A DNA stretch of 64,000 nt from Vicinamibacterales bacterium (GTDB taxonomy: Bacteria; Acidobacteriota; Vicinamibacteria; Vicinamibacterales; UBA8438): positions 1,364,078 to 1,428,077 of the forward strand of contig OZ242323.1 of NCBI GenBank assembly GCA_965208165.1. The letters run 5' to 3'. Of this stretch, positions 5,792 through 31,987 are shown one piece after another. The notes beneath the pieces are model-generated. The model did not search any database. It saw only the letters and a list, made by a program, of their open reading frames with translations, and was not told where the DNA came from. Position 1 is the stretch's first letter, and each line of letters begins with the position of its first letter. A program made the translations under genes and the position numbers.

Positions 5792-5924
5792 CAGGACGCC
5801 CGCGAGATCGGCGCGTGGCGCCGCCCCGCCGTGGCGTCGGCGGTCATCGGAGGGCTGGCGGCTGCTCCGGTCCGGCCGGCTCGTTGGTGCGGCGCGACAC
5901 CGGCGGCCGGTCCCTCGGGGACCG

Positions 5925-6136
5925 CGCCGCCGGGTCGAAGCGAGACGCCGCCGGGTCGAAGCGAGACGCCGCCGGGTCAAAGCGAGACGCCGCCGGGTCG
6001 AAGCGAGACGCCGCCGGGTCGCGAGAAGCCGGCCGGGTCAAAGCGAGACGCCGACCGGGTTGAAGCGAGACGCCGGCCGGGTCGAAGCGAGAAACCGGCC
6101 GGGTCGAAGCGAGAAGCCGGCCGAGTCGGAGCAGAG
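5925..6136. repeat. tandem repeat, 21-bp unit x about 10 (GCCGGGTCGAAGCGAGACGCC)
   Basis: Head-to-tail copies that degenerate toward the 3' side; intergenic. Confidence 0.85.
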
Positions 6137-6143
6137 GCGGCCG

Positions 6144-7151
6144 CTACTGCTGCGATTCCTCCTCGGCCGCGGCCCTGTCGTCCGCCCGCGCCCCGGACAG
6201 GATGCCCTCCATCGAGTAGTTCCCCTCGTGGCAGGCGTACTCGAACAACGGCGTGTCGGTCCGCTGCATGGGCATCGACGCCGTCCAGGGGACCGCCCAG
6301 GTGTCGAGGTCGTTCACCGTGAACGTGTACTCGAGGGTGTCGTCGTCCAGCCGGGTGAACCGCTCCACCAGGGTGAAGCTGTCGCTCGACGCCACGCCGG
6401 AGCCCCCCGAGGTCAGCGGGATCCACTGGCGCTGGTCGTTGAAGTTCGCCGACTCGATGACCAGCGTGTCGCCCTCCCAGTAGCCGCGCGAGTCGCCCGT
6501 CCACAGGCGGATGCCGTCGTCGAGGGCGGGGCGTCCGTCGAGGGGCACGATGCGCGAGGTGTGCACCATCTCGGTGTGGATGACCACGTGGTCGGGGGTC
6601 TGGAAGAGCTGCATGTTCTGGTTGTAGGCGAGCGGCGTGATGGGGGGGCCGGCGTTGAACCCCACGATGCACCGGTCGGACGTGTTGCGGTCGGTGTAGG
6701 TGTCGGCGGGGTGCTCGGCCATGTGCGCCCGCCGCGCCTCGGCGCGCTCGGCGCCGACCTCGGACAGCTCGGGGAACCGGCCGTTCGGAGGATCGGTGAT
6801 GAGCGACGTGCGCCGCGTCTCGATGGGCCGGGTGCCCCGGTCCATCCAGAAGTTGTTGTAGGCGCCGACGTTGCCGCCAGCCTCGGTCCTCTGCGCCTCG
6901 CGCTCCCAGAGCTCGATGTCGCGCTCCACGGCCTCCCGCTCGAGGGTCGCGGCCTCCTCCGGCGTATAGAACGCCTGGTCGCCCAGGTCTTCCGGCCGCT
7001 CCAGCGGGGTGATGGTGCGGAAGTCCCAGATGCCCTGCAGATCCGGCGCCCCCCACGGGGTCCGGGGCGCGTCCTGGGCCGCCGCCGGGGCCGCGGTCAG
7101 CCCCGCGATGGCGATCACGGCGAGCGCCGCGACGAGAGAACGATTGGTCAT
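6144..7151 (-). CDS. hypothetical secreted protein
   Basis: Signal peptide MTNRSLVAALAVIAIAGLTAAPAAAQ; long ORF in the correct-strand context; no recognised domain. Confidence 0.6.
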   Translation of the reverse strand: MTNRSLVAALAVIAIAGLTAAPAAAQDAPRTPWGAPDLQGIWDFRTITPLERPEDLGDQAFYTPEEAATLEREAVERDIELWEREAQRTEAGGNVGAYNNFWMDRGTRPIETRRTSLITDPPNGRFPELSEVGAERAEARRAHMAEHPADTYTDRNTSDRCIVGFNAGPPITPLAYNQNMQLFQTPDHVVIHTEMVHTSRIVPLDGRPALDDGIRLWTGDSRGYWEGDTLVIESANFNDQRQWIPLTSGGSGVASSDSFTLVERFTRLDDDTLEYTFTVNDLDTWAVPWTASMPMQRTDTPLFEYACHEGNYSMEGILSGARADDRAAAEEESQQ

Positions 7152-7405
7152 TGCATCCACCTCCTGGTGTCCCGGTCGTCTTTCCGTGTCCTGCCAATCA
7201 TCGATCCGGAGGGTGGTCGCGCGCAAGGACGGATCGGGCCGATCCTCGACACGGCGGTGTCCGCCGCCGGCGCACCACTGCCGACGGTACGGCCGCCCGG
7301 GACTCGGAGAGCCCGAGTCCGTGGCTGACCCCCCGCCGCATCATTCGATCTCCCTCACGTTCCCCGAGCCGGACGGGCGTGCAATGGCGGCGCGCGGCCG
7401 TATCC

Positions 7406-11771: not shown

Positions 11772-11879
11772 TGTCCCGCCACCGTGGTTCGAGGAACAAT
11801 CCTGTGCGGCACTACTTTAGTCTTGCAGGCAGTTACCGCGATCCAGAGCTTTCGCGAAACTTCACGGCCCCGACACTAG
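11768..11879 (+). mobile_element. MITE-like 112-bp element, copy A (TIR CTAGTGTC...GACACTAG)
   Basis: 8-bp perfect terminal inverted repeat. About 80% identical over its full length to 60489..60600, and in reverse to 60079..60185. Confidence 0.55.
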
Positions 11880-12460
11880 AAGATGGCGATCGGGTTCACC
11901 GGCGACCCCGTGCCGCCCGGCACCCGTAGCGGGGCCACCACCAGCAGGAACTCCCAGCGGTTGAGCCGGGCCGCGGTCTCGGCCGCCGCGTCGAGGTCGA
12001 TGTTGTCGAGCAGGTTCATCCCGCGCGCGACGATGGCGAAGCGGTGGATGGGGTTGACGCGCAGCCCCGGCACGCTGTCGGGCGCCTCGTGCACCGAGTC
12101 GGCCCCGAGCAGGGCGATGTCGCGCTCGGCCAGGAACGGGATGACCGAGGCGTCCCACCCCGACATCTCCCGCGTCGGCCCCACCGCCTCGCGGTAGGCC
12201 CAGCGGCCGGTGCGCAGCAGCAGCGCGTCGCCCGGCCCCAGCCGCACGCCGGCATACTCTTCCCACGCCTCGATGTCCTCGCGGTACAGCTTCGTGCCCG
12301 GCTCGAGGTACGGCACGCCCTTCAGCCGGGGCATGTCGACGAGCACCCCACGCGTCACCAGGCCGTCCCTCATCTGGGTGGTGTCCATCAGCGAGGGGTG
12401 CGGCTCTTTTTCATCGGCGATCGAGGGGTCCATGGGCTTCTGCGAGGAGCATGGCAAGAC

Positions 12461-14080
12461 CTACTTGATCCGTCGAAGGCGGGGTGAGGGTGGTGGGGGC
12501 GGCTCGGCGACGGGCGGTACTATCCCGTCGGCGTAGCGCTGGGCGTGGTTCCGTTCGTACTCGCGCGCTTCGTGGAAGGTCCAGTACGCATCGAAGTCGC
12601 CGCTGGCGCGCAGCGCCCGGAGCTTCAACACCGCCTCGGCCCCGACCAGGCGCCACCGGGCGCCGGTCAATTCCATCCGGTCGCGGACGAGGTGCCGGCA
12701 CGCCCCTTCGACAACGCCGGTGGCGATGGGATAGCCCGCCGCGAGGTAGCGGTCGTAGTGCAGATACGGTGCGTACTTCAGCAGGTAGTCCGCGCACGTA
12801 TCGACCGGCTTGCGGGTGTCGGGCGACAAGCCGGCGACGGTCGCCGCACGCCGCATCGACGACGCCACCTGGCGGGCCTTGCCCTCGAGAATGTCCCGCA
12901 CCCGCGTCCACGCCCAACACGCCAGCTCGGGGCTCCCCTCGCGATGGAATACGCGCGCCGCCTTCCAGACGTACTCGACCACGTGGATGATGTCCAGGAC
13001 CACCGTGACCTCCACCCCGAATTCTGCGGCGCCCGCTTCCACCAGGTCGAGCTGCGTCTCGGCCCCGTCGACGAGCACCACCCAGCGCTTGACGCGCTTC
13101 GGGTCGTGGCGCTCCGCTTCCAGCATCGCCTCGACGATCACCTCCCCGGGCTCCCGTTCGAGGCTCGCCCAGACCCGTTTCGCCACCGGGCGGGGCCGCA
13201 CCGCCGGGGGCGCGGCCTTCTTGCCCTTGCCCTTCTTGGTCTTGTCCCCCGGCTGTCGGGGCATCAAGCTCTGCAGGAACTCCTCCGCACTCCGCACGAA
13301 CGGCGCGACCGTGTAGACGGCGGCCACCGTCGCCATCCGCTTCGAGTGCTTCTTCTCCCCCGGCTTGAGGCGATTGAACGGGGAGAGCTGCTCCCGTTGC
13401 CGCCGACGCCGCTCGGCCTCCTTGCGCGTCGCCTCGCGCAGGTCCTCGCGATGCAGCACCACCCCCTTGCCGTCGAAGGTGAGCACGACAACCGACTCCT
13501 CCGGGGCCGGCTCGCCCGTCGCCGCACGGCGGGCTTCGTAGAACGCGTCGAAGTCCACGGCCGCGCGAGCCGCCAACTGCTCCGCCTGACGCTTCGGCAC
13601 CTCCGCGCCGGTACTCCGGGACAGATCGAACAACGCTTCGTCGAAAGACCGCGAGGCCGCCGCCTCCGCCACCCGCCGACGCACCTCCAGCGAGTAGCGC
13701 TCCACCGGCAGATTGAGCGACGCATCGAGCGGATGGAGACTATCGTGACCGGGGCGCGCATAGCCCACGCGACCGACATCCACCGTCCCGAAGACCGTCT
13801 CCACCGCGCGTTTGTGCACGCGCCGTTCCCGGCGCTCGACACCATCAGACCCCGCGACCGGACCCGCCGCCTCCCCAGGACTGCGTTGGTCGAGGTGACC
13901 TTGCAGCAGCTTCTGCATCAGCTCCTGGCCCCGCCGGTGCAGCTCCCGTTCGAGATCGCTCTCACTCATCTGCCGGGCCTCACGCGAAGAGAGGTAGGCT
14001 TTGGCCTCCGCAAAGGCCTCGTCCGCCGCCGCATACGGCGCCGGTGCGGATGCCGCGGCGGGGTGGGGAACAACTCGCAC
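12461..14080 (-). CDS. ISKra4-family transposase
   Basis: 539 aa; C-terminal GACRHLVRDRMELTGARWRLVGAEAVLKLRALRASGDFDAYWTFHEAREYERNH is characteristic of ISKra4-like transposases. Confidence 0.8.
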   Translation of the reverse strand: MRVVPHPAAASAPAPYAAADEAFAEAKAYLSSREARQMSESDLERELHRRGQELMQKLLQGHLDQRSPGEAAGPVAGSDGVERRERRVHKRAVETVFGTVDVGRVGYARPGHDSLHPLDASLNLPVERYSLEVRRRVAEAAASRSFDEALFDLSRSTGAEVPKRQAEQLAARAAVDFDAFYEARRAATGEPAPEESVVVLTFDGKGVVLHREDLREATRKEAERRRRQREQLSPFNRLKPGEKKHSKRMATVAAVYTVAPFVRSAEEFLQSLMPRQPGDKTKKGKGKKAAPPAVRPRPVAKRVWASLEREPGEVIVEAMLEAERHDPKRVKRWVVLVDGAETQLDLVEAGAAEFGVEVTVVLDIIHVVEYVWKAARVFHREGSPELACWAWTRVRDILEGKARQVASSMRRAATVAGLSPDTRKPVDTCADYLLKYAPYLHYDRYLAAGYPIATGVVEGACRHLVRDRMELTGARWRLVGAEAVLKLRALRASGDFDAYWTFHEAREYERNHAQRYADGIVPPVAEPPPPPSPRLRRIK

Positions 14081-14083
14081 GGC

Positions 14084-15001
14084 TCAACCCTCCCGAAGCC
14101 GCCGCTTCGCATCCCGGACCAAAGGATAGACCAGAACCGTCTTGGGCGCCTCGCCGACACGGCGGCCGTACCGGTCCATCCGCCCTCGACCGGCCGTGGC
14201 GCCCAACGCCACCCAGTTGGCGGCGCGATACGAACCGCCGTGGTGCCGGCTCGGGTCCACCAGCGTCTCCACGAGCCAGGGCTCGAGGCCGTAGCGGCGC
14301 GGCCAGTCGACCATCAAGTGCCCGAGCCCGCGCGACAGGACTGCGCTGGCCAGGTTCCTCACCCCGACCCACGGCAGCAGCAGGAAGCGGCTGTTGTTGA
14401 CCACGTGCTGGAGATTCCGCGCCCGAGTCGCGTCGTCCCAGCCGACCCAGCCATCCCGCGCCGCCATCCGCCACGCCGGGCTGGAGAACTGCAGGCAGCC
14501 GACCACCACCCGCTGAGGCCTCGCCGCGAACACCAGATAGCGCAGGTGGGCGCCGAAGGGGACCGTGTGCCCGAGGTAGTGGTAGCGGCCCACGAGCTCC
14601 CGGAACAGCAGGCGCTCGGCCGGCTCGCGTACCAGCTCGACATCCAGCGGCTCGACGTCGCGCACGCTGCCGACGAGCGGGCAACCCGGCTCTCCCGCCG
14701 CCGTCCGGGGCACGCGGGTGACCGAGCCGGGGGCGCGGCCCAGGCGCTTGTCCGGCAGCGCCACCGCACCCTCCGCGTCGAGCCGCTCCAGGAACTCGCG
14801 GCACTCGCGCGCCTTCAGCCTCCCGTTCGGGCGCCGCCACCGCAACAGCTCGCACACCGTGCGCGCCAGCTCCATCCGGCTCAAGCCCGGACAGTCCCGC
14901 ACGACCTCGCGGATCAGCGTCATCTCTCGCCCGCTGAAGGTGCGTCCCGAGAATCTCGTCGTCGCAGCCGCCATCGCAGGGGCTTTCCTTCCCCACGACA
15001 C
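14084..15001 (-). CDS. IS passenger protein (DUF4338-like)
   Basis: 305 aa; ends 4 nt before the transposase start; lies inside the IS inverted repeats; ...LVGRYHYLGHTVPFGAHLRYLVF...NLQHVVNNSRFLLLPWV. Family call from memory. Confidence 0.6.
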   Translation of the reverse strand: MSWGRKAPAMAAATTRFSGRTFSGREMTLIREVVRDCPGLSRMELARTVCELLRWRRPNGRLKARECREFLERLDAEGAVALPDKRLGRAPGSVTRVPRTAAGEPGCPLVGSVRDVEPLDVELVREPAERLLFRELVGRYHYLGHTVPFGAHLRYLVFAARPQRVVVGCLQFSSPAWRMAARDGWVGWDDATRARNLQHVVNNSRFLLLPWVGVRNLASAVLSRGLGHLMVDWPRRYGLEPWLVETLVDPSRHHGGSYRAANWVALGATAGRGRMDRYGRRVGEAPKTVLVYPLVRDAKRRLREG

Positions 15002-15748
15002 CGTACCAAAACGCCGCGCGAATGTCCAGAGGGAGCGCCGGACGGGAAGACCGGAGCGCGCCGGCGTCGTGATCAGGCCGGGCGAAGGCCCGAAAGCGGC
15101 GGGTGGAGACGCTGGCCGGAAGCTGTCCCCGGCCAGAGCGCACTAGCGAGCGCGGGCCCCGTGGGCATAACTCCTTATGAATGAGTGAGATAACATTCTA
15201 CGCAAAAGAGCCGCACCCATCAGCGAGCAGCCGTCCTCGGTGACCACGTCGCGGAAGTCGAGGCCGTTGTAGAGCCTGTCCTTGTAGAAGACGTGGCACA
15301 GCCCGTCGAGGTGGGAGTAGCTCACGCCGTGGAAATAGACCTCGACCCGGTCGCCCGAGTTCTGCCCCTCGGGATTGACGTTCATCTGCAGCACATAGGG
15401 CTCGGCCGCGTCGGGCGCTTCCTCGGTGAGGAAGTCGTGGGACAGCGACACGGTGGTGCCGGTCCGAACGAGGGCCGCCGCCTCGCGGCGCTTCTCGTCC
15501 GTCATCAGGTTGGCGGCGCCGATCTGGTCGTCGTCGCCCCACCGGCCCCAGTTCGACAGCTCGTCCATCCACCGGTCGAACTGCGCGATGCTGACCGGCT
15601 CGCGCTCGGGCGACTGGGCCGGTGCGTCGGCGGTCGACCCGACCAGGCCGAGTCCGGTGATGCCCGCCACGAGTATCGATGTTCTCCTCATGTTGCTCTC
15701 CCTGCGCCCGGTTCGGTGTTGGCCTGCTGGCGTCAGTGCGGTGAGATG

Positions 15749-16045
15749 TCACCAGCCGAGGAACTCCCAGCGCACGATGTGCGACGCCATGAAGACGAAG
15801 TCGCAGAAGACGTACATAACAGCCGTTCGCCGGAGGAGGAGCGGGTACCCGGACCGCAGGCAGACGGCCGAAGCGCACAGGAGCAGCCCCGCTGGCACGA
15901 CACCCTTGTGGAGGGTGTCGTCCGGGACCGGCCAGGTGGCCGCGACCACGAGAACGGCGAGCGGCGCCATTGCCCACGCCCGCCGCCGCAGAAACGCAAG
16001 GCCCTCCCGCAACCCCTCTCGCGCGTCGGGCTGCACCCACTTCAT
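15749..16045 (-). CDS. hypothetical small membrane protein
   Basis: 98-aa ORF with two hydrophobic segments in a locally lower-GC spacer; no homology recognised. Confidence 0.3.
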   Translation of the reverse strand: MKWVQPDAREGLREGLAFLRRRAWAMAPLAVLVVAATWPVPDDTLHKGVVPAGLLLCASAVCLRSGYPLLLRRTAVMYVFCDFVFMASHIVRWEFLGW

Positions 16046-16096
16046 CGCTCGACCTCCTCGGCCGATCCTGCGGTCGCCGGTCCCAAGGTGCGGTCC

Positions 16097-16470
16097 GGTT
16101 CACGCCAGTCCAAGCACCTCCTCCATCACCAGTCGCGGCCCGCGGTCGTGGTCCCGCACGACGTTGCGCGTCCGGTTTCACGCGAGTCCAAGCACGTCTT
16201 CCATGACCAGCCGCGGACCGCGGTCGTGGTCCCGTACGACGTTGCGCGTCCGGTCTCACGCGAGTCCAAGCACCTCCATGACCAGCCGCGGACCGCGGTC
16301 GTGGTCCCGTACGACGTTGCGCGTCCGGTTTCACGCGAGTCCAAGCACCTCCTCCATGACCAGCCGCGGACCGCGGTCGTGGTCCCGTACGACGTTGCGC
16401 GTCCGGTCTCACGCGAGTCCAAGCACCTCCTCCATGACCAGCCGCGGACCGCGGTCGTGGTCCCGCACGA
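16097..16470. repeat. tandem repeat: 75-bp unit x5 duplicating the 3' end plus stop codon of the carboxylesterase gene
   Basis: Unit GGT(Y)TCACGCGAGTCCAAGCACCTCCTCCATGACCAGCCGCGGACCGCGGTCGTGGTCCCGTACGACGTTGCGCGTCC; one copy is 72 bp. Each copy encodes ...RDHDRGPRLVMEEVLGLA* on the minus strand. The last copy is the genuine gene end. Confidence 0.85.
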
Positions 16471-18076
16471 TGAGGCTCTCGTTGTCGAAGATCATCGCCT
16501 GCCGGGTGTCCGCGGCGTAAACGGGCCAGTGCGGCAGGTCCCGGGTGTCGGGGTTCCCGGTGCGGGCGAACGCCGTCCACGCCGCGCTCATCCGGCCGGC
16601 GAGAACGCGCGCGGCCGGCGATCCGGGCAGATCGAACAGCCGCGTCTCGGTGTGGTCGACGTTGTCGAAGACGAAGCGAATCTCGAGGGCGTGGGGCGTC
16701 TTCATCTCGCCCCCCATGTCCCAGTCGAAGCGGTAGAGCCAGGCGGGGGCGCCGCCCTGCGCGGTCTTCCGCGCCGCGAGCTCGCGCGCGTACATGCCGC
16801 GCGGGTGGTCCGTGCAGATCAGGATGTAGAGGTCCCACGGGCGCGCGTCGGGGTAGGCGTCGCGATAGGCGGTGACGACGCGGCCGGCGTCGGCGTCGCT
16901 CCGCAGCCGTGCCGCCATGCGCCCCTGCAGGTCGGTCTCCGTCATGTCGAGCGGCATCTCGCGGCCCCGCCACCACAGCGTCTCCTCGGTGCGGTTGTAG
17001 CCGACGATCACCGGCACGTCTCTCGAAATCTCGGCCGCCGCCGGATCGAAGGGATGAACCGGGATGAAGCGGCCGTCGAGCACGGGGGTGCTGCCGGACA
17101 TGCCGACCACGTGCTCCTCCGGCTCGAAGTCGCCGGACACCTCGGTGAATGCCGCGAACAGCCGGTCGGTCGGGACCGCCTGCAGATCCCGCGCCTGGTC
17201 GGCGCGCAGCCCGAGCTTCGCGAGCAGCAGCTCCGCCTCGCGGGTCGCATCGGACGCATGGCGAACGCGCAGCACCGCGCCGCTCTGGATGATCGCGCGG
17301 TGGAAGAGGCCCTTGGCGTCGGGCATCGCGAGCAGGGTCGAGACCTTCCGTCCGCCGCCGGACTCTCCGAACACGGTCACCCGGCCCGGATCGCCGCCGA
17401 ACGCCTCGATGTTGTCGCGTACCCACTTGAGGGCGGCGACGACGTCGAGCATGCCCGTGCAGCCGGACGCCGCGAAGTCGTCGCCGGCCAGCTCGGCGAG
17501 GTACGCCGACCCGAAGATGTTGAGGCGGTGGTTGATGGTGACGACGACCACGTCGCTCCGGTTGCACAGGTTGACGCCGTCGTAGGTGGCCGAAGACCCG
17601 GAGCCGGAGCTGAAGCCGCCGCCGTGCAGCCAGACCATGACCGGCCGCCGGCCACCGTCGCCGAGCCCCCGCGTCCACACGTTGAGGAAAAGGCAGTCCT
17701 CGCTGGCGACGGGCTGGGAGCGACCCTGCGGCGCCGCCGCGCCGTAGTCCAGCGCGTCGCGCACGCCGGTCCACGGCGCCGGCGCCGCGGGCGGCATGAA
17801 CCGGTTCCGCCCCCCCGTCGGTGCGCCGTATCGAACCCCCTTGAAGACGTGGACGCCCGCGCGGACGGCGCCTCGGACGCGGCCCGCGGTTGTCTCGACC
17901 GTCGCGCCCGAGGCCGTCTCCTGGCCCCACGCGGAAACGGTCGCGGCCGGCTCGCCGTGCAGCAGCCGTGCCGCGCCGCCGGCGGCGGCGAGGCCCGACG
18001 CCCGGCGCAGGAACCCGCGTCGGCTCCAGAGGTCGTGGCGTGTGGTCGCGGAGCCGGCGTGATGCGTTGCTGTCAT
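16409..18076 (-). CDS. carboxylesterase/lipase type B family, Tat-secreted
   Basis: Tat motif SRRGFLRRASGLAAAGGAA; FGESGGG nucleophile elbow (GESAG-type); EDCLFLNVW. Confidence 0.9.
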   Translation of the reverse strand: MTATHHAGSATTRHDLWSRRGFLRRASGLAAAGGAARLLHGEPAATVSAWGQETASGATVETTAGRVRGAVRAGVHVFKGVRYGAPTGGRNRFMPPAAPAPWTGVRDALDYGAAAPQGRSQPVASEDCLFLNVWTRGLGDGGRRPVMVWLHGGGFSSGSGSSATYDGVNLCNRSDVVVVTINHRLNIFGSAYLAELAGDDFAASGCTGMLDVVAALKWVRDNIEAFGGDPGRVTVFGESGGGRKVSTLLAMPDAKGLFHRAIIQSGAVLRVRHASDATREAELLLAKLGLRADQARDLQAVPTDRLFAAFTEVSGDFEPEEHVVGMSGSTPVLDGRFIPVHPFDPAAAEISRDVPVIVGYNRTEETLWWRGREMPLDMTETDLQGRMAARLRSDADAGRVVTAYRDAYPDARPWDLYILICTDHPRGMYARELAARKTAQGGAPAWLYRFDWDMGGEMKTPHALEIRFVFDNVDHTETRLFDLPGSPAARVLAGRMSAAWTAFARTGNPDTRDLPHWPVYAADTRQAMIFDNESLIVRDHDRGPRLVMEEVLGLA

Positions 18077-18971: not shown

Positions 18972-19611
18972 GGTGGTCCTCCCAGAGATCGACGTAGACG
19001 GTGTCGCGCGCGGACGCGCGCTCTCCCCACAGGTCGCGCGCCGTGAAGCGCACGGTGTAGACGTGCTGGGGCGGGCGGTCGATCGCCTGCCCGGCTTCGT
19101 CGGTGTCCTGCAGGGCGTACACGCCGTTGTCCCGCTTGACGACGCCCGTCTTGCCGCGCGTGTAGCGCGGCAGCCGCGTGTGTCCCGGCGGATGCAGATT
19201 GCGCGCGCGCACGTCCTCGCCCGGTCGGAAGCGCGGTGGCACGTCGGCGTTCAGTCGCCCGGGGCCGGAGGGGCGCGCGACGGGCCCGGGGCGGAGAGCC
19301 AACCCCGCCGGTCCCGGCCCCGGCCGTCCCGTTTCGAGCTCGGCCCTCGTCACCAGGCCGCTGCGTAGGAGCCGGTCCATCGATATCGCGAACCAGCGCT
19401 CGTAGTACGACATGCGCAGGTAGTCGGCGGGGGGGATGCGCTCGAGGTCGTAGCGGAAGCTGCCCCAGCCCGGCACCCGGTCCTTGGGCCGGAGGGCGGC
19501 GCGGATGGCGAACACGCGGCCCTCCCAGGGGTGGTGGAAGACGGGCTCGTCGTCTTCGCGCTCGACGGGGCCGAATCCGTCCATGCCGCCCATGTCGTGG
19601 ACGCCGTTCAT
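18958..19611 (-). CDS. nthB: nitrile hydratase beta subunit
   Basis: MNGVHDMGGMDGFGPVEREDDEPVFHHPWEGRVFAI...; unsplit beta chain, so nitrile hydratase rather than thiocyanate hydrolase. Confidence 0.85.
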   Translation of the reverse strand: MNGVHDMGGMDGFGPVEREDDEPVFHHPWEGRVFAIRAALRPKDRVPGWGSFRYDLERIPPADYLRMSYYERWFAISMDRLLRSGLVTRAELETGRPGPGPAGLALRPGPVARPSGPGRLNADVPPRFRPGEDVRARNLHPPGHTRLPRYTRGKTGVVKRDNGVYALQDTDEAGQAIDRPPQHVYTVRFTARDLWGERASARDTVYVDLWEDHLEPA

Positions 19612-19745
19612 GTCGATCTCCCGCCGGTGGGGGGCGGCTCGACGGCGACTTCGCGCTCGACGGGGCCGAATCCGTCCATGCCGCTCATGTCGTGGACGCC
19701 GTTCATGCGGACCTCCCGCCGGCCGGCGGCGGCACGACGGCAACG
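19556..19745. repeat. 95-bp tandem duplication of the nthA-3' / nthB-5' junction
   Basis: ATG-to-ATG period is 95 bp. The proximal copy gives a 32-aa [35 protein letters not shown] whose stop overlaps the real nthB ATG (ATGA), just as its own ATG overlaps the nthA stop. Confidence 0.75.
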
Positions 19746-20560: not shown

Positions 20561-20764
20561 TTGGGACAGTGATCGACATAAGGTTGCCAACTGCAACTGG
20601 GCGCAACCCGTTTCTCACCGTTTCGGGCGCTTGGCGCGTGGCAAGGTAATTTCCGTCATTAGTTGGGACAGTGATCGACACAGGGTTGCCAACTGGACTC
20701 GGGCTCAGCCCGTATTCTACGGTTTCGCGCTCCAGGCAGACGGCAAGGCAATTCTCGTCAGTGT
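20561..20764. repeat. two tandem ~102-bp direct repeats upstream of nthA
   Basis: TTGGGACAGTGATCGACAyAgGGTTGCCAACTG... occurs twice head-to-tail between the NTF2-like gene stop and the nthA promoter region. Confidence 0.7.
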
Positions 20765-24148: not shown

Positions 24149-24232
24149 CTCAACTGAAGTACCAGCGCCGCCACCAGCAGCACGATCGCTGCCGACTGGA
24201 CGAGGTCTCCCGTCGTCAGGTCCGCTCGCGCC
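24149..24232. repeat. ~85-bp duplicated copy of the SSS-transporter gene 3' end (134-bp period)
   Basis: TCAACTGAAGTA..CACGATCGCTGCCGACTGGACGAGGTC.CCCGTCGTC.AGGTCCGCTCGCGC recurs 134 bp upstream of the genuine gene end (24283..) and includes the stop. Confidence 0.7.
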
Positions 24233-24284
24233 GCGATCCTCTGCCGCACCTCCGCTCCGGAGGACTACGCCGTTGCCTCTGGGA

Positions 24285-25886
24285 TCAACTGAAGTAGATC
24301 AGCACCCCCGCCACCAGCAACACGATCGCTGCCGACTGGACGAGGTCCCCCGTCGTCCAGGTCCGCTCGCGCGGCGCGTCTTCCGCCTCCGGGGCGCTGA
24401 ACGTCAGCCCCCGTAGTCGCGCCGGGTCCGGCCGTTCGGTGGCGAGGCTGACCGTGGCGAGGAGCAGCACGCAGACCACGAACAGGGCGAAGCCGAAGTA
24501 CAGGAAGTTCACGCCGGCCAGCCAGCCGAGGGGACCGGACAGCGCGTCGGCCCGCAGCTCGAGCAGCAGCTTCGCCATCCCGAGGACGAACCCCGCCACC
24601 AGGGTGGTGATGGCCCCGGTCGCGTTCACCCGGTTCCACAGCAGCCCCAGCAGGAACACCGCCGCGATGGGCGGGGCGATGTACGCCTGCACGTTCTGCA
24701 GGTAGGTGTAGAGCCCCGTCGCGAGGGCCTGCATGACGGGGATCCACGCGATGCCGAGCCCGACGACGGCGAGGGTGCCCCAGCGCCCCACCCGCACGAG
24801 CTCCGCCCCCGTTGCGGCGGGGCGCACCTTGCGGTAGACGTCCATCGTGAACAGGGTCGAGCACGAGTTGAAAACGGCGGCGAGCGAGCTCATCAGGGCC
24901 GCGAGCAGGCCGGCGGCGACGAGGCCGCGCAGGCCCACCGGCAGCACCGCGTTGACGAGCACGGGCAGGGCCTGGTCGGCCTCGGCGAGGTCGAGCCGGC
25001 CGCGGTTGGCGAGGCCCAGCGCGATCATCCCCGGCACGATGAAGAGGAACACCGCCGACAGCTTCAGCCACGCGCCCCAGATGGCGCCCCGGCGCGCGGT
25101 GGCCTCGTCCTCGGCGGCCAGCACCCGCTGCACGATGTACTGGTCGGTGCACCAGTACCAGAGGCCGACGATGGGCGGGGTCAGCACCATGCCGAGCCAG
25201 GGGAACTCGGGGTCGTCGAGGGGCTTCCACATGTCGAACAGGTCGCTCCCCACCGACGCGCGCAGCTCGCCCCAGCCGCCGATCTCCGCGAGCCCGAAGA
25301 AGGTCACCGCGGCCGAGCCCCCGACGAGGACGAACGCCTGCAGCGCCTCGGTGTAGACCACCGCGCGCAGGCCGCCGAGCACGGTGTAGACGCCGGTCAG
25401 CACGACCACCGCCGCCGCCCCCGTCCAGAAGTCGAGGCCCATCAGCCCCTGCAGCATGACGCCGCCCGCGTAGACGGTCACCGACACCTTGGTGAGGACG
25501 TAGCCCACCAGCATGACCACCGACAAGAACCAGCGGCTGCGGCCGTCGTAGCGCCGCTCGAGGAACTCGGGCATCGTGAAGACGCCGCTGCGCAGGTAGA
25601 ACGGCACGAACACCCAGCCCAGGAGCAGGATGATCCACGAGTGCAGCTCGTAGTGCCCCAGCACCATGCCGGTGCTGGCCCCCGAGCCGGCGAGCCCGAC
25701 CACGTGCTCGGAGCCGATGTTCGAGGCGAACAGCGACCCCCCGATGGCGAACCAGCCGACGTGCCGGCCCGCGAGAAAGTAGTCGGCGGCGGTCTGCTGG
25801 CGCCGGCGCGCGACCCACGCCGCGATGCCGAGCAGGGCCGCGAAGTACGCGCCGACGACGATCCAGTCCAGAGCGGCGAACCTCAT
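24285..25886 (-). CDS. sodium:solute symporter (SSS/SGLT family)
   Basis: 533 aa with 13-14 TM helices; N-terminus DWIVVGAYFAALLGIAAWVARRRQQTAADYFLAGRHVGWFAIGGSLFASNIGSEH is typical of SSF transporters. Confidence 0.9.
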   Translation of the reverse strand: MRFAALDWIVVGAYFAALLGIAAWVARRRQQTAADYFLAGRHVGWFAIGGSLFASNIGSEHVVGLAGSGASTGMVLGHYELHSWIILLLGWVFVPFYLRSGVFTMPEFLERRYDGRSRWFLSVVMLVGYVLTKVSVTVYAGGVMLQGLMGLDFWTGAAAVVVLTGVYTVLGGLRAVVYTEALQAFVLVGGSAAVTFFGLAEIGGWGELRASVGSDLFDMWKPLDDPEFPWLGMVLTPPIVGLWYWCTDQYIVQRVLAAEDEATARRGAIWGAWLKLSAVFLFIVPGMIALGLANRGRLDLAEADQALPVLVNAVLPVGLRGLVAAGLLAALMSSLAAVFNSCSTLFTMDVYRKVRPAATGAELVRVGRWGTLAVVGLGIAWIPVMQALATGLYTYLQNVQAYIAPPIAAVFLLGLLWNRVNATGAITTLVAGFVLGMAKLLLELRADALSGPLGWLAGVNFLYFGFALFVVCVLLLATVSLATERPDPARLRGLTFSAPEAEDAPRERTWTTGDLVQSAAIVLLVAGVLIYFS

Positions 25887-31817: not shown

Positions 31818-31829
31818 AGGACGTCACGG

Positions 31830-31966
31830 GTCGGGTACCGCGACGAACGACGGTTCGGGGGCGGGCATGGACCGGGGAGATGCGACGCCAAGTCCCCGGT
31901 CGGGTACCGCGACGAACGACGGTTCGGGGGGCGGCATGGATCGGGAGATGCGACGCCAAGTCCCCG
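31830..31966. repeat. tandem repeat, ~69-bp unit x2, containing a CGGGGA...TCCCCG hairpin
   Basis: GTCGGGTACCGCGACGAACGACGGTTCGGGGGCGGGCATGGACCGGGGAGATGCGACGCCAAGTCCCCG occurs twice head-to-tail in the intergenic leader of the next gene. Confidence 0.7.
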
Positions 31967-31987
31967 GCGCTTGGAAGGAGTCGTCAC

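What the first reader, a model, noticed from the sequence alone, without database searches (positions are those of the whole stretch)
16097..16470. Five tandem 75-bp copies of a gene's last 25 codons plus stop codon, downstream of the carboxylesterase
Each unit re-encodes ..RDHDRGPRLVMEEVLGLA* and ends with TGA, so the array is a string of stop-terminated gene tails. Copy-number change cannot alter the protein, but it could alter 3'UTR structure and termination. Other 3'-end duplications in this window (SSS transporter at 24149, gene 60702) suggest a recurring mechanism that acts on gene termini.
Basis: seen in the sequence. Interest (0 to 1): 0.6.

Follow-up and report, generated by a model that had tools for sequence, protein, structure and literature searches.

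The report
Gene-tail minisatellite after an esterase gene
The last 19 codons, stop codon and 18 following bases of a carboxylesterase gene are repeated five times head to tail; related soil bacteria carry 1, 2 or 5 copies, so it is an ordinary variable-number tandem repeat with no sign of a function.

Summary
The array is real. It lies on the minus strand at window 16089-16470. The period is 78 bp, not 75 (units of 78, 78, 75 and 78 bp, plus a last unit that runs into the native downstream sequence). Each unit holds the last 19 codons of a 555-aa COesterase gene, TGA, and an 18-nt spacer.

It is not an assembly artefact. Two independent long metagenome contigs (99.7% and 98.4% identical) also carry five units. 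Two other relatives carry two units, and seven carry one.

It has no terminator, no unusual RNA or DNA fold, no Rfam match and no promoter-like site. It is not a DGR and it is not dispersed elsewhere in the window.

This lineage (probably Acidobacteriota, 71% GC) has at least ten times more 59-140-bp tandem duplications than 80 control loci. All of them lie in intergenic DNA or straddle gene ends. Two more, independent, tail duplications occur at this same stop codon in other relatives.

A placement simulation shows that purifying selection against duplications inside genes explains the location. No mechanism that targets gene ends is needed.

Verdict: a near-neutral VNTR, most like Mycobacterium tuberculosis ETR/VNTR loci. 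The lineage-wide tendency to duplicate is the more interesting result.

The parts
16409..18076 (-). Carboxylesterase gene (555 aa). Its last 19 codons and its stop codon form unit 1 of the array.
   Evidence: ORF list. Pfam PF00135 COesterase, E = 2.5e-92. GC3 = 0.93. Orthologues at 89-100% identity.
16391..16468 (-). Unit 1 (78 nt): the functional gene tail GTG CGG ... GCG, TGA at 16409-16411, then the 18-nt spacer GACCGGACGCGCAACGTC.
16313..16390 (-). Unit 2 (78 nt): the same 19 codons (the first codon is GTA instead of GTG), TGA at 16331-16333, then the spacer AACCGGACGCGCAACGTC.
16238..16312 (-). Unit 3 (75 nt): lacks one GAG codon; TGA at 16256-16258. In the 99.7%-identical strain L132 this unit is a full 78 nt.
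16160..16237 (-). Unit 4 (78 nt): has GAA GAC (…MEDVLGLA); TGA at 16178-16180. Apart from its first codon (GTA here, GTG there) it is identical to the functional tail of L112 over the coding part and spacer; its coding part also matches the second copy of L081 apart from L081's TGG second codon.
16100..16159 (-). Unit 5 (19 codons plus TGA at 16100-16102): the most diverged unit, with 4 synonymous third-position changes. It is joined to the native downstream sequence, as in the single-copy relative L085.
16046..16099 (-). Native intergenic sequence (ACCGGACCGCACCTTGGGACC...GGAGGTCGAGCG) with the ribosome-binding site of the next gene. It is orthologous to the 60-nt spacer of the single-copy relatives L085 and L086.
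15749..16045 (-). Co-directional 98-aa hydrophobic ORF downstream of the array. It has no Pfam hit and is conserved in L085, L112, L132 and L133.

Best explanation
The array is a near-neutral minisatellite (a variable-number tandem repeat, VNTR).

Origin (inferred): a short tandem duplication of about 78-79 bp happened to straddle the stop codon of the carboxylesterase gene.

Why it persists (inferred): such a duplication is harmless. The first copy still ends the gene correctly, and the last copy keeps the native junction with the next gene, so selection does not remove it.

Expansion: once two units existed, unequal homologous recombination or replication slippage between units raised the number from 2 to 5 in this lineage. 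That copy number differs between strains is shown. The mechanism of the change is inferred.

Sequence exchange (shown by one chimeric unit): homologous recombination with other strains' alleles has moved sequence into and between units. This explains why the units differ only at the third-codon sites that are also polymorphic among functional alleles.

Context: the array is one of many such duplications in a lineage that makes 59-140-bp tandem duplications unusually often. They are seen only between genes or across gene ends, because copies inside genes are removed by selection.
For: The array and its anatomy:
- Shown: Copy number across relatives:
- 5 units: the window and the independent long contigs L132 (99.7% nt identity) and L133 (98.4%).
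- 2 units: L112, whose units match window units 4 and 5 at 99%, and L081, whose period is 79.
- 1 unit: L082, L083, L084, L085/L086, L128 and L131.

Unit 5 plus its flank is orthologous to the single-copy arrangement in L085.

No coding constraint on the extra copies:
- L081's 79-nt period breaks the frame, and its second copy has Arg->Trp.
- The second copy in L129 is frameshifted.

Recombination:
- L081 unit 1 is a chimera of an L085-like 5' part and the array-specific CTC plus spacer.
- Window versus L112 identity is 94.1% in the gene body and 97.9% downstream.

Lineage-wide excess:
- Tandem repeats with period >= 40 occur at 6.25 per 100 kb in the window and 13.4 per 100 kb in close relatives. 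In 972 kb of control loci the rate is 0.51 per 100 kb, and none of those reaches 85% identity.

Selection filter:
- Simulation gives 75% expected inside coding sequence, 0 of about 13 observed, P about 1e-8.

No functional signal:
- No terminator or promoter-like site.
- Fold z-scores near 0.
- No Rfam family.
Against: - All 7 substitutions among the five units fall at third codon positions. By my arithmetic (1/3)^7 = 4.6e-4. Simple neutral decay of the non-coding copies does not predict this. I attribute it to exchange with functional alleles, but only one chimeric unit (L081 unit 1) shows that directly.
- Five copies are kept in three strains that differ by up to 1.6%, so the array is not highly unstable.
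- Three independent duplications hit this one stop codon among the lineages sampled. That is somewhat more than the about 1 per gene boundary seen elsewhere, and could hint at a local hotspot.
- No expression data exist, so a regulatory effect on the downstream 98-aa gene cannot be excluded.
Confidence: 0.8

Rival explanations
1. The array is a regulatory spacer. By lengthening the gap between the esterase stop codon and the 98-aa gene from about 60 to 363 nt, copy number tunes co-transcription, translational coupling or mRNA stability. This has been claimed for the ETR-F/VNTR3239 array between rnc and fpg1 in M. tuberculosis.
For: - The array sits between two co-directional genes that are only 60 nt apart in the single-copy relatives L085/L086.
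- Five copies are conserved in three strains.
- Precedent: the length of an intergenic VNTR correlates with downstream mRNA level in M. tuberculosis (PMC2734929).
Against: - No terminator-like or promoter-like site.
- No fold beyond shuffles.
- The transcript strand is G-rich, so it is not Rho-loading-like.
- No Rfam match.
- Relatives with 1, 2 and 5 copies all keep both genes intact, and other relatives lack the 98-aa gene altogether.
- The same lineage makes many similar duplications at unrelated loci.
Confidence: 0.12
2. The first duplication was not an intrachromosomal slip. It arose when DNA from a diverged strain recombined with one homologous crossover inside the gene and an illegitimate join at the start of the resident tail. 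On this view unit B plus the spacer came from the donor allele, and unit 5 is the resident tail. This is a variant account of the origin only. The array would still be a VNTR afterwards.
For: - Unit 4/B and unit 5 differ at 6 third-codon positions, in 57 nt: GGT/GGG, CGG/CGA, GTC/GTG, GAA GAC/GAG GAG (two adjacent third positions) and CTC/CTG. All of these are polymorphic among functional alleles of relatives.
- The spacer is a diverged version of the native post-stop sequence (AACCGGACGCGCAA versus A-CCGGAC-CGCACC).
- Mosaic identity between the window and L112.
- L081 unit 1 is a chimera.
Against: - The same pattern arises if an ordinary tandem duplication came first and the gene plus unit 1 was later replaced by homologous recombination.
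- The second copy in L129 sits in a diverged copy of its own downstream context, as expected for an in-situ duplication.
- No donor allele carrying exactly the spacer sequence after a single tail was found.
Confidence: 0.25
3. A dedicated mechanism targets gene 3' termini, for example a recombinase or a replication-transcription conflict at stop codons, and generates the tail duplications.
For: - 6 of about 12 independent duplications in this lineage include a stop codon: the esterase three times, SSF, cyclase and 3keto-disac_hyd.
- Two of the esterase events start within 10 nt of each other, near GGGACCACGACC.
Against: - Expectation after a pure selection filter is already 24% stop-spanning.
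- The excess (binomial P about 0.04, my arithmetic) disappears once the esterase events, which I went looking for, are discounted.
- Unit lengths (59-140 bp), end points and junctions all differ. Junction microhomology is only 0-2 nt, with no shared motif.
- Purely intergenic, start-spanning and stop/start-junction duplications also occur.
- The DNA hairpin potential of the tail is not unusual.
Confidence: 0.06
4. The array is an assembly artefact, or a known repeat-based system such as a DGR template/variable repeat pair, an intrinsic terminator array, or a stop-codon readthrough extension.
For: A gene's 3' end copied just downstream is the classic layout of a DGR. All five units keep the reading frame (78 or 75 nt).
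Against: - Artefact: two independent assemblies from other samples carry five units, and the units carry distinct variants.
- DGR: the mismatches are not adenine-specific (T/G, C/G and G/A all occur). The tail is highly conserved among orthologues. No reverse transcriptase was found among the 36 window proteins scanned.
- Terminator: none found.
- Readthrough: L081's period is 79, and later copies carry a nonsynonymous change or frameshifts.
Confidence: 0.02

Closest known systems
Locus-specific VNTR / exact tandem repeat (ETR) loci of Mycobacterium tuberculosis, e.g. ETR-F/VNTR3239 between rnc and fpg1 (PMC2734929, read)
   Same: - Head-to-tail units of tens of base pairs in a GC-rich genome.
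- Located between co-directional genes whose spacing is only a few to tens of bp in relatives without the array.
- Copy number differs between strains.
- The unit is specific to the locus.
   Different: - The unit here is a copy of the upstream gene's own last 19 codons plus its stop codon.
- The organism is a probable Acidobacteriota soil bacterium.
- No expression effect has been tested.
- The units differ only at synonymous sites that are also polymorphic among functional alleles.
MIRU (mycobacterial interspersed repetitive units; Supply et al. 1997, as summarised in PMC2734929 and PMC12548453)
   Same: - Tandem units of 40-100 bp in intergenic regions of operons.
- Copy-number polymorphism.
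- The neighbouring NHase alpha/beta array in this window (19548-19737) does resemble MIRUs in carrying mini-ORFs joined to the flanking genes by ATGA overlaps.
   Different: - MIRUs are one dispersed family at 41 loci and are thought to be mobile. This unit is made from local sequence and occurs only at this locus.
- The esterase units carry a stop codon but no start codon, so they form no coupled ORF.
Microhomology-mediated tandem duplications (MTDs; PMC8639346)
   Same: - Short tandem duplications (55-92 bp in the cited alleles) that arise spontaneously and can revert.
- GC-rich microhomology favours them.
- They are depleted where deleterious.
   Different: - MTDs were described mainly in yeasts and were detected about 20 times less often in E. 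coli.
- They are defined by 5-8-bp microhomology at both ends. Here the young duplications show only 0-2 nt, and the esterase junction is ambiguous (a possible CCGCA).
- This array has also expanded beyond two copies.
Diversity-generating retroelement TR/VR pairs
   Same: A copy of a gene's 3' end lies just downstream of the gene.
   Different: - No adenine-specific mismatches.
- No reverse transcriptase found.
- The C-terminus is conserved, not hypervariable.
- There are five head-to-tail copies rather than one spaced template repeat.

Membership tests
Bacterial minisatellite / VNTR | Head-to-tail repeats with a unit of about 10-100+ bp and high identity between units | tested here: met
   Period 78, 5.0 copies, 93% matches, score 659. 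Spacings of 78, 75, 78 and 78.
Bacterial minisatellite / VNTR | Copy number differs between strains at the same locus | tested here: met
   5 copies in the window, L132 and L133; 2 copies in L112 and L081; 1 copy in L082-L086, L128 and L131.
Bacterial minisatellite / VNTR | Real in the genome rather than created by assembly | tested here: met
   Independent long contigs from samples ERZ21861969 and ERZ24894576 carry the same five units. Read-level data were not available.
MIRU | Member of a dispersed family of related units at many loci | tested here: not met
   The unit and junction patterns match only this locus in the 64-kb window. In the fetched loci only esterase tails match. The whole genome was not available.
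MIRU | The unit contains a small ORF whose ends overlap the stop and start of the flanking genes (translational coupling) | tested here: not met
   Each unit has the TGA followed by an 18-nt spacer and no start codon. The NHase alpha/beta array at 19548-19737 does meet this feature.
MIRU | Located in the intergenic region of co-directional genes | tested here: met
   It lies between the esterase stop (16409) and the 98-aa gene start (16045), both on the minus strand.
Microhomology-mediated tandem duplication | The same microhomology of 5 bp or more at the start of the unit, at the junction and after the last unit | tested here: inconclusive
   A candidate CCGCA is present both in the gene (GCCGCATCGTG) and in the native flank (ACCGCACCTT), but the observed junction (CGCAACGTCGT, or CGCAAACATCGT in L081) does not match it exactly. 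Young duplications in relatives have 0-2 nt.
Diversity-generating retroelement (TR/VR) | Mismatches between repeats confined to adenines of the template repeat | tested here: not met
   The differences are T/G, G/A, C/G, G/C and a 3-nt deletion.
Diversity-generating retroelement (TR/VR) | A reverse transcriptase gene nearby | tested here: not met
   No RT domain among the 36 predicted proteins of the window that were scanned. About 8 ORFs beyond 50 kb were not scanned.
Intrinsic (Rho-independent) terminator | A GC-rich hairpin followed by a U-tract | tested here: not met
   0 terminator-like sites in 15600-16700. Fold z-scores from -0.68 to +1.08.

The most novel reading that the evidence does not exclude
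This Acidobacteriota lineage may have an unusually active process of short (59-140 bp) tandem duplication with little junction microhomology. Fill-in and end-joining at staggered breaks is one possible cause.

If so, it would seed minisatellites at gene boundaries across the whole genome. Some of these would be kept and expanded because they tune operon expression. The esterase-tail array and the translationally coupled 32-aa mini-ORF array between the NHase alpha and beta genes (1, 2 or 4 units) would be examples.

That would amount to a MIRU-VNTR-like landscape generated in situ from local sequence, in a phylum where nothing of the kind has been described.
Probability: 0.3. Interest if true: 0.5.

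Novelty: new member of a known kind. Interest (0 to 1): 0.25.

Why it matters
The array alone matters little. It is a harmless tandem repeat whose only practical use is as a strain-typing marker. It also shows that a 'string of stop-terminated gene tails' needs no special mechanism.

The wider pattern is more useful. About 110 kb of this uncultured soil lineage holds a dozen independent 59-140-bp tandem duplications. All lie at or between gene ends, and several vary in copy number between near-identical strains.

If that holds across the genome, it would be a clear natural example of how selection filters structural mutations. It would also point to a lineage-specific mutational process, and it would offer VNTR markers for tracking Acidobacteriota strains in metagenomes.

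The NHase junction array shows that a duplication across an ATGA stop/start overlap automatically creates chained, translationally coupled mini-ORFs. That is a simple route to MIRU-like structures.

Tried and rejected
- Source and orthologue searches. An exact-protein look-up of the window esterase found nothing. Orthologous loci came instead from the large protein search and from cluster members.
- Metagenome junction-pattern scan. It gave 41 hits, of which 40 were chance matches. Only L112 was relevant.
- Terminator or attenuator. Rejected.
- Known RNA family. None at gathering score. The only hit was malK-III at E = 0.66 and 17 bits against a gathering score of 50, which I treat as chance.
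- DGR. Rejected: mismatches are not A-specific, the tail is conserved, and no RT was found.
- TGA readthrough, or translation of the array in frame. Rejected: L081's period is 79, L081 copy 2 has R->W, and L129 copy 2 is frameshifted.
- The 98-aa alternative-frame ORF inside the array (16126..16422). No Pfam hit. It is a by-product of the repeats.
- Replication-stalling hairpin at GACCGCGGTC/CCGCGGTCCGCGG. The DNA fold is not different from shuffles.
- Dispersed or mobile unit. Rejected.
- Hotspot at this stop codon. Three independent events among the lineages sampled, against about 1 per boundary elsewhere. This is not significant, and I had looked at this site specifically.
- Literature. Searches for tandem repeats in Vicinamibacter or Acidobacteria found nothing specific. 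One search failed on a term that was too short.

Full report
**What is there**

The window is 71.2% G+C. On the minus strand, ORF 16409..18076 encodes a 555-aa protein that matches Pfam COesterase (PF00135, E = 2.5e-92).

Tandem Repeats Finder reports an array at 16089-16470 with period 78, 5.0 copies, 93% matches and score 659. The repeat finder gives start-to-start spacings of 78, 75, 78 and 78.

Read on the coding strand, each unit has three parts:
- 19 codons: GTR CGG GAC CAC GAC CGC GGN CCG CGN CTG GTS ATG GAG GAG GTG CTT GGA CTS GCG, which encode VRDHDRGPRLVMEEVLGLA
- TGA
- an 18-nt spacer, (A/G)ACCGGACGCGCAACGTC

Unit 1 (16391-16468) is the true gene end. Units 2-4 occupy 16313-16390, 16238-16312 (75 nt, lacking one GAG) and 16160-16237 (GAA GAC, giving MEDVLGLA). 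Unit 5 (16100-16159) is followed by the native downstream sequence and, 54 nt later, by a co-directional 98-aa ORF (15749..16045).

The junction pattern occurs four times against 0.00 expected, and the unit occurs nowhere else in the window.

The period (78, not 75), the number of codons per unit (19 plus stop plus an 18-nt spacer, not 25) and the strand need correcting.

**Comparative evidence**

The species-representative genome scan found only relatives at 50% identity or less. The large protein search found many orthologues at 75-97% identity from metagenome assemblies. A member of the closest 90% cluster is named 'Acidobacteria bacterium', and 75%-identical homologues are named Vicinamibacterales. 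The taxonomic assignment is therefore an inference.

All orthologues end in ...VRDHDRGPRLVME[ED]VLGLA, so the tail is conserved coding sequence.

I read the DNA downstream of the stop codon in fourteen syntenic loci (two of them, L085 and L086, are the same arrangement):

| Copies | Loci | Notes |
|---|---|---|
| 5 | L132, L133 | 99.7% and 98.4% nt identity to the window over 4.5 kb. Independent long contigs from other samples. All five units are 78 nt, otherwise nearly identical to the window's. |
| 2 | L112 | Soil metagenome contig. Its two units correspond to window units 4 and 5 (99% identity), with the same 98-aa gene downstream. |
| 2 | L081 | 97% aa identity, 1.3-Mb contig. Period 79. 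|
| 1 | L082, L083, L084, L085/L086, L128, L131 | 88-92% aa identity. |
| own duplication | L129, L130 | See below. |

L085/L086 show the ancestral arrangement. The tail, TGA, ACCGACCGCACCTTGGGACC... and the 98-aa gene follow one another with 60 nt between the genes. This is what follows unit 5 in the window.

The array is therefore genuine, varies between strains (1, 2 or 5 copies), and was built on the proximal side of the native tail.

Two further relatives carry different, independent tail duplications at the same stop codon:
- L129 has a decayed, frameshifted second tail about 98-117 nt downstream, inside a diverged copy of its own downstream context.
- L130 has a 107-bp unit that begins six codons before the stop.

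**Tests for function**

- There are no promoter-like or terminator-like sites in 15600-16700.
- The 366-nt inter-cistronic RNA and the single units fold no better than dinucleotide shuffles, with z from -0.68 to +1.08.
- The tail as single-stranded DNA is also unremarkable, with z of -0.33 and +0.42.
- The transcript strand is G-rich (plus-strand GC skew -0.10 to -0.23), which is unlike a Rho-loading site.
- No Rfam family matches.
- A DGR reading fails. The mismatches are not adenine-specific, the C-terminus is conserved, and no reverse transcriptase was found among 36 scanned proteins.
- Readthrough or translation of the extra units is contradicted by L081's 79-nt period, an Arg->Trp change in its second copy, and the frameshifts in L129's second copy.

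**The one odd feature**

All seven substitutions among the window's five units lie at third codon positions. Six are synonymous and one changes E to D. By my arithmetic (1/3)^7 = 4.6e-4.

The unit table shows that these are the same sites that are polymorphic among the functional tails of the orthologues (GGN, CGN, GTC/GTG, GAG/GAA, GAG/GAC, CTC/CTG).

Two observations point to recombination:
- L081's first unit is a visible chimera. It has an L085-like allele up to codon 17, followed by the array-specific CTC codon and the spacer.
- Window and L112 are 94.1% identical in the gene body but 97.9% identical from unit 4 onward.

I infer that homologous recombination with functional alleles of other strains has repeatedly written into the array. 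Alternatively, the first duplication itself joined tails from two alleles. These two origins cannot be separated with the present data.

**The wider pattern**

The window has further tandem duplications at gene boundaries:
- 140 bp x 2 across the stop of the sodium:solute symporter gene (24163-24357). The second copy is decayed, and the duplication is absent from L081.
- 95 bp x 2 across the nitrile hydratase alpha-stop/beta-start overlap (19548-19737).
- 102 bp x 2 (20561-20760) and 69 bp x 2 (31823-31967) in intergenic DNA.
- A 21/22-nt x 10 array that abuts a stop codon (5918-6143).

Relatives add these:
- 64 bp x 2 across the cyclase stop (L083)
- 84 bp x 2 across the 3keto-disac_hyd stop (L085)
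- 59 bp x 2 just after the cyclase stop (L081)

Repeats with period >= 40 occur at 6.25 per 100 kb in the window and 13.4 per 100 kb in the close relatives. In 972 kb of 80 unrelated bacterial loci the rate is 0.51 per 100 kb, and none of those reaches 85% identity.

None of about 13 events lies wholly inside a gene. A uniform-placement simulation on the annotated part of the window expects 75% inside genes (P about 1e-8). Among the remainder it expects 42% intergenic, 26% start-spanning, 24% stop-spanning and 8% junction-spanning.

The observed share of stop-spanning events (6 of about 12) is only marginally above that expectation, and it is inflated because I looked specifically at the esterase stop codon. 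Junctions of the young duplications show 0-2 nt of microhomology and no common motif.

So the 'recurring mechanism at gene termini' is best read as a high lineage-wide rate of short tandem duplication combined with selection against copies inside genes.

**Comparison with known systems**

The closest known things are the locus-specific VNTR/ETR loci of M. tuberculosis. One example is ETR-F between rnc and fpg1, where a gap of 6-20 bp in other mycobacteria has become 279-358 bp of repeats, and repeat length was reported to correlate with downstream expression (PMC2734929).

MIRUs share the operon-intergenic location. They differ in being a dispersed, possibly mobile family with coupled mini-ORFs (PMC12548453). 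The esterase array fails both of those features.

Microhomology-mediated tandem duplications (PMC8639346) are a plausible birth mechanism, but the microhomology criterion is not clearly met here.

I file the array as a new member of a known kind: a bacterial minisatellite/VNTR.

**Verdict**

The array is real, variable between strains and ordinary. Interest is 0.25. The lineage-wide tendency to duplicate, and the NHase mini-ORF array, are the parts worth following up.

Noticed in passing
window 19548-19737 (minus strand); also L084, L085, L129 (2 units), L132 1146-1523 and L133 1143-1523 (4 units): A 95-bp VNTR spans the nitrile hydratase alpha-stop/beta-start ATGA overlap. Each extra unit is a 32-aa mini-ORF (beta's first 19 codons fused to alpha's last 13) chained to its neighbours by ATGA overlaps, at 19706 and 19611 in the window. 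This keeps translational coupling and is MIRU-like. Copy number is 1 in L081, L083, L128 and L130; 2 in the window, L084, L085 and L129; and 4 in L132 and L133, which are 98.4-99.7% identical to the window.
   Followed up: partly
window 24163-24357 (minus strand): A 140-bp tandem duplication covers the last ~30 codons, the stop codon and ~45 nt downstream of the sodium:solute symporter gene (24285..25886). The second copy is decayed (1-nt and 3-nt deletions, nonsynonymous changes). Relative L081 has a single copy.
   Followed up: yes
window 12396-15217: A 2.82-kb IS-like insertion splits the cyclase gene into 15143..15691 and 11876..12457. It has a 10-bp target-site duplication, CATCAGCGAG (12386-12395 and 15218-15227), and ~14-bp terminal inverted repeats (GGTGCGGCTCTTTT). 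It carries a 539-aa transposase-like ORF with no Pfam hit (12461..14080) and a DruA-domain ORF (14084..15001, PF14236, E = 1.7e-49). It is absent from the 99.7%-identical L132 and from L133, so it is recent.
   Followed up: partly
L129 4168-4400; L130 4150-4390: Two further, independent tandem duplications include the same esterase stop codon. L129 has a decayed, frameshifted second tail. L130 has a 107-bp unit that starts six codons before the stop.
   Followed up: partly
L083 5713-5837; L085 117-284; L081 9039-9158; L081 7750-7960: Young tandem duplications (95-98% identity) in relatives: 64 bp x 2 across the cyclase stop, 84 bp x 2 across the 3keto-disac_hyd stop, and 59 bp x 2 just after the cyclase stop. 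L081 also has a threefold GCTTGCGGCCGG-containing repeat in the esterase-cyclase spacer. Junction microhomology is only 0-2 nt.
   Followed up: partly
window 5918-6143: About ten copies of a 21/22-nt unit (CGCCGGCCGGGTCGAAGCGAGA) directly abut the stop codon of gene 6144..7226 (minus strand) and lie upstream of a VCA0040-like gene.
   Followed up: no
window 20561-20760: A 102-bp x 2 repeat (76-79% identity) of lower G+C lies in the intergenic region between the DUF4440 gene and NHase alpha. It may be a duplicated promoter or operator region. No Rfam match.
   Followed up: no
   Followed up: no
downstream of the esterase stop in window, L081-L085, L128-L131: The DNA right after the esterase stop codon varies between strains. 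It holds a 98-aa membrane ORF (window, L085, L112, L132, L133, probably L128), a higBA-like toxin-antitoxin pair (L084), or leads directly to the cyclase gene (L081, L082, L083, L129, L130). In L131 the cyclase gene is missing. The conserved gene tail may serve as a crossover site for swapping this segment.
   Followed up: partly
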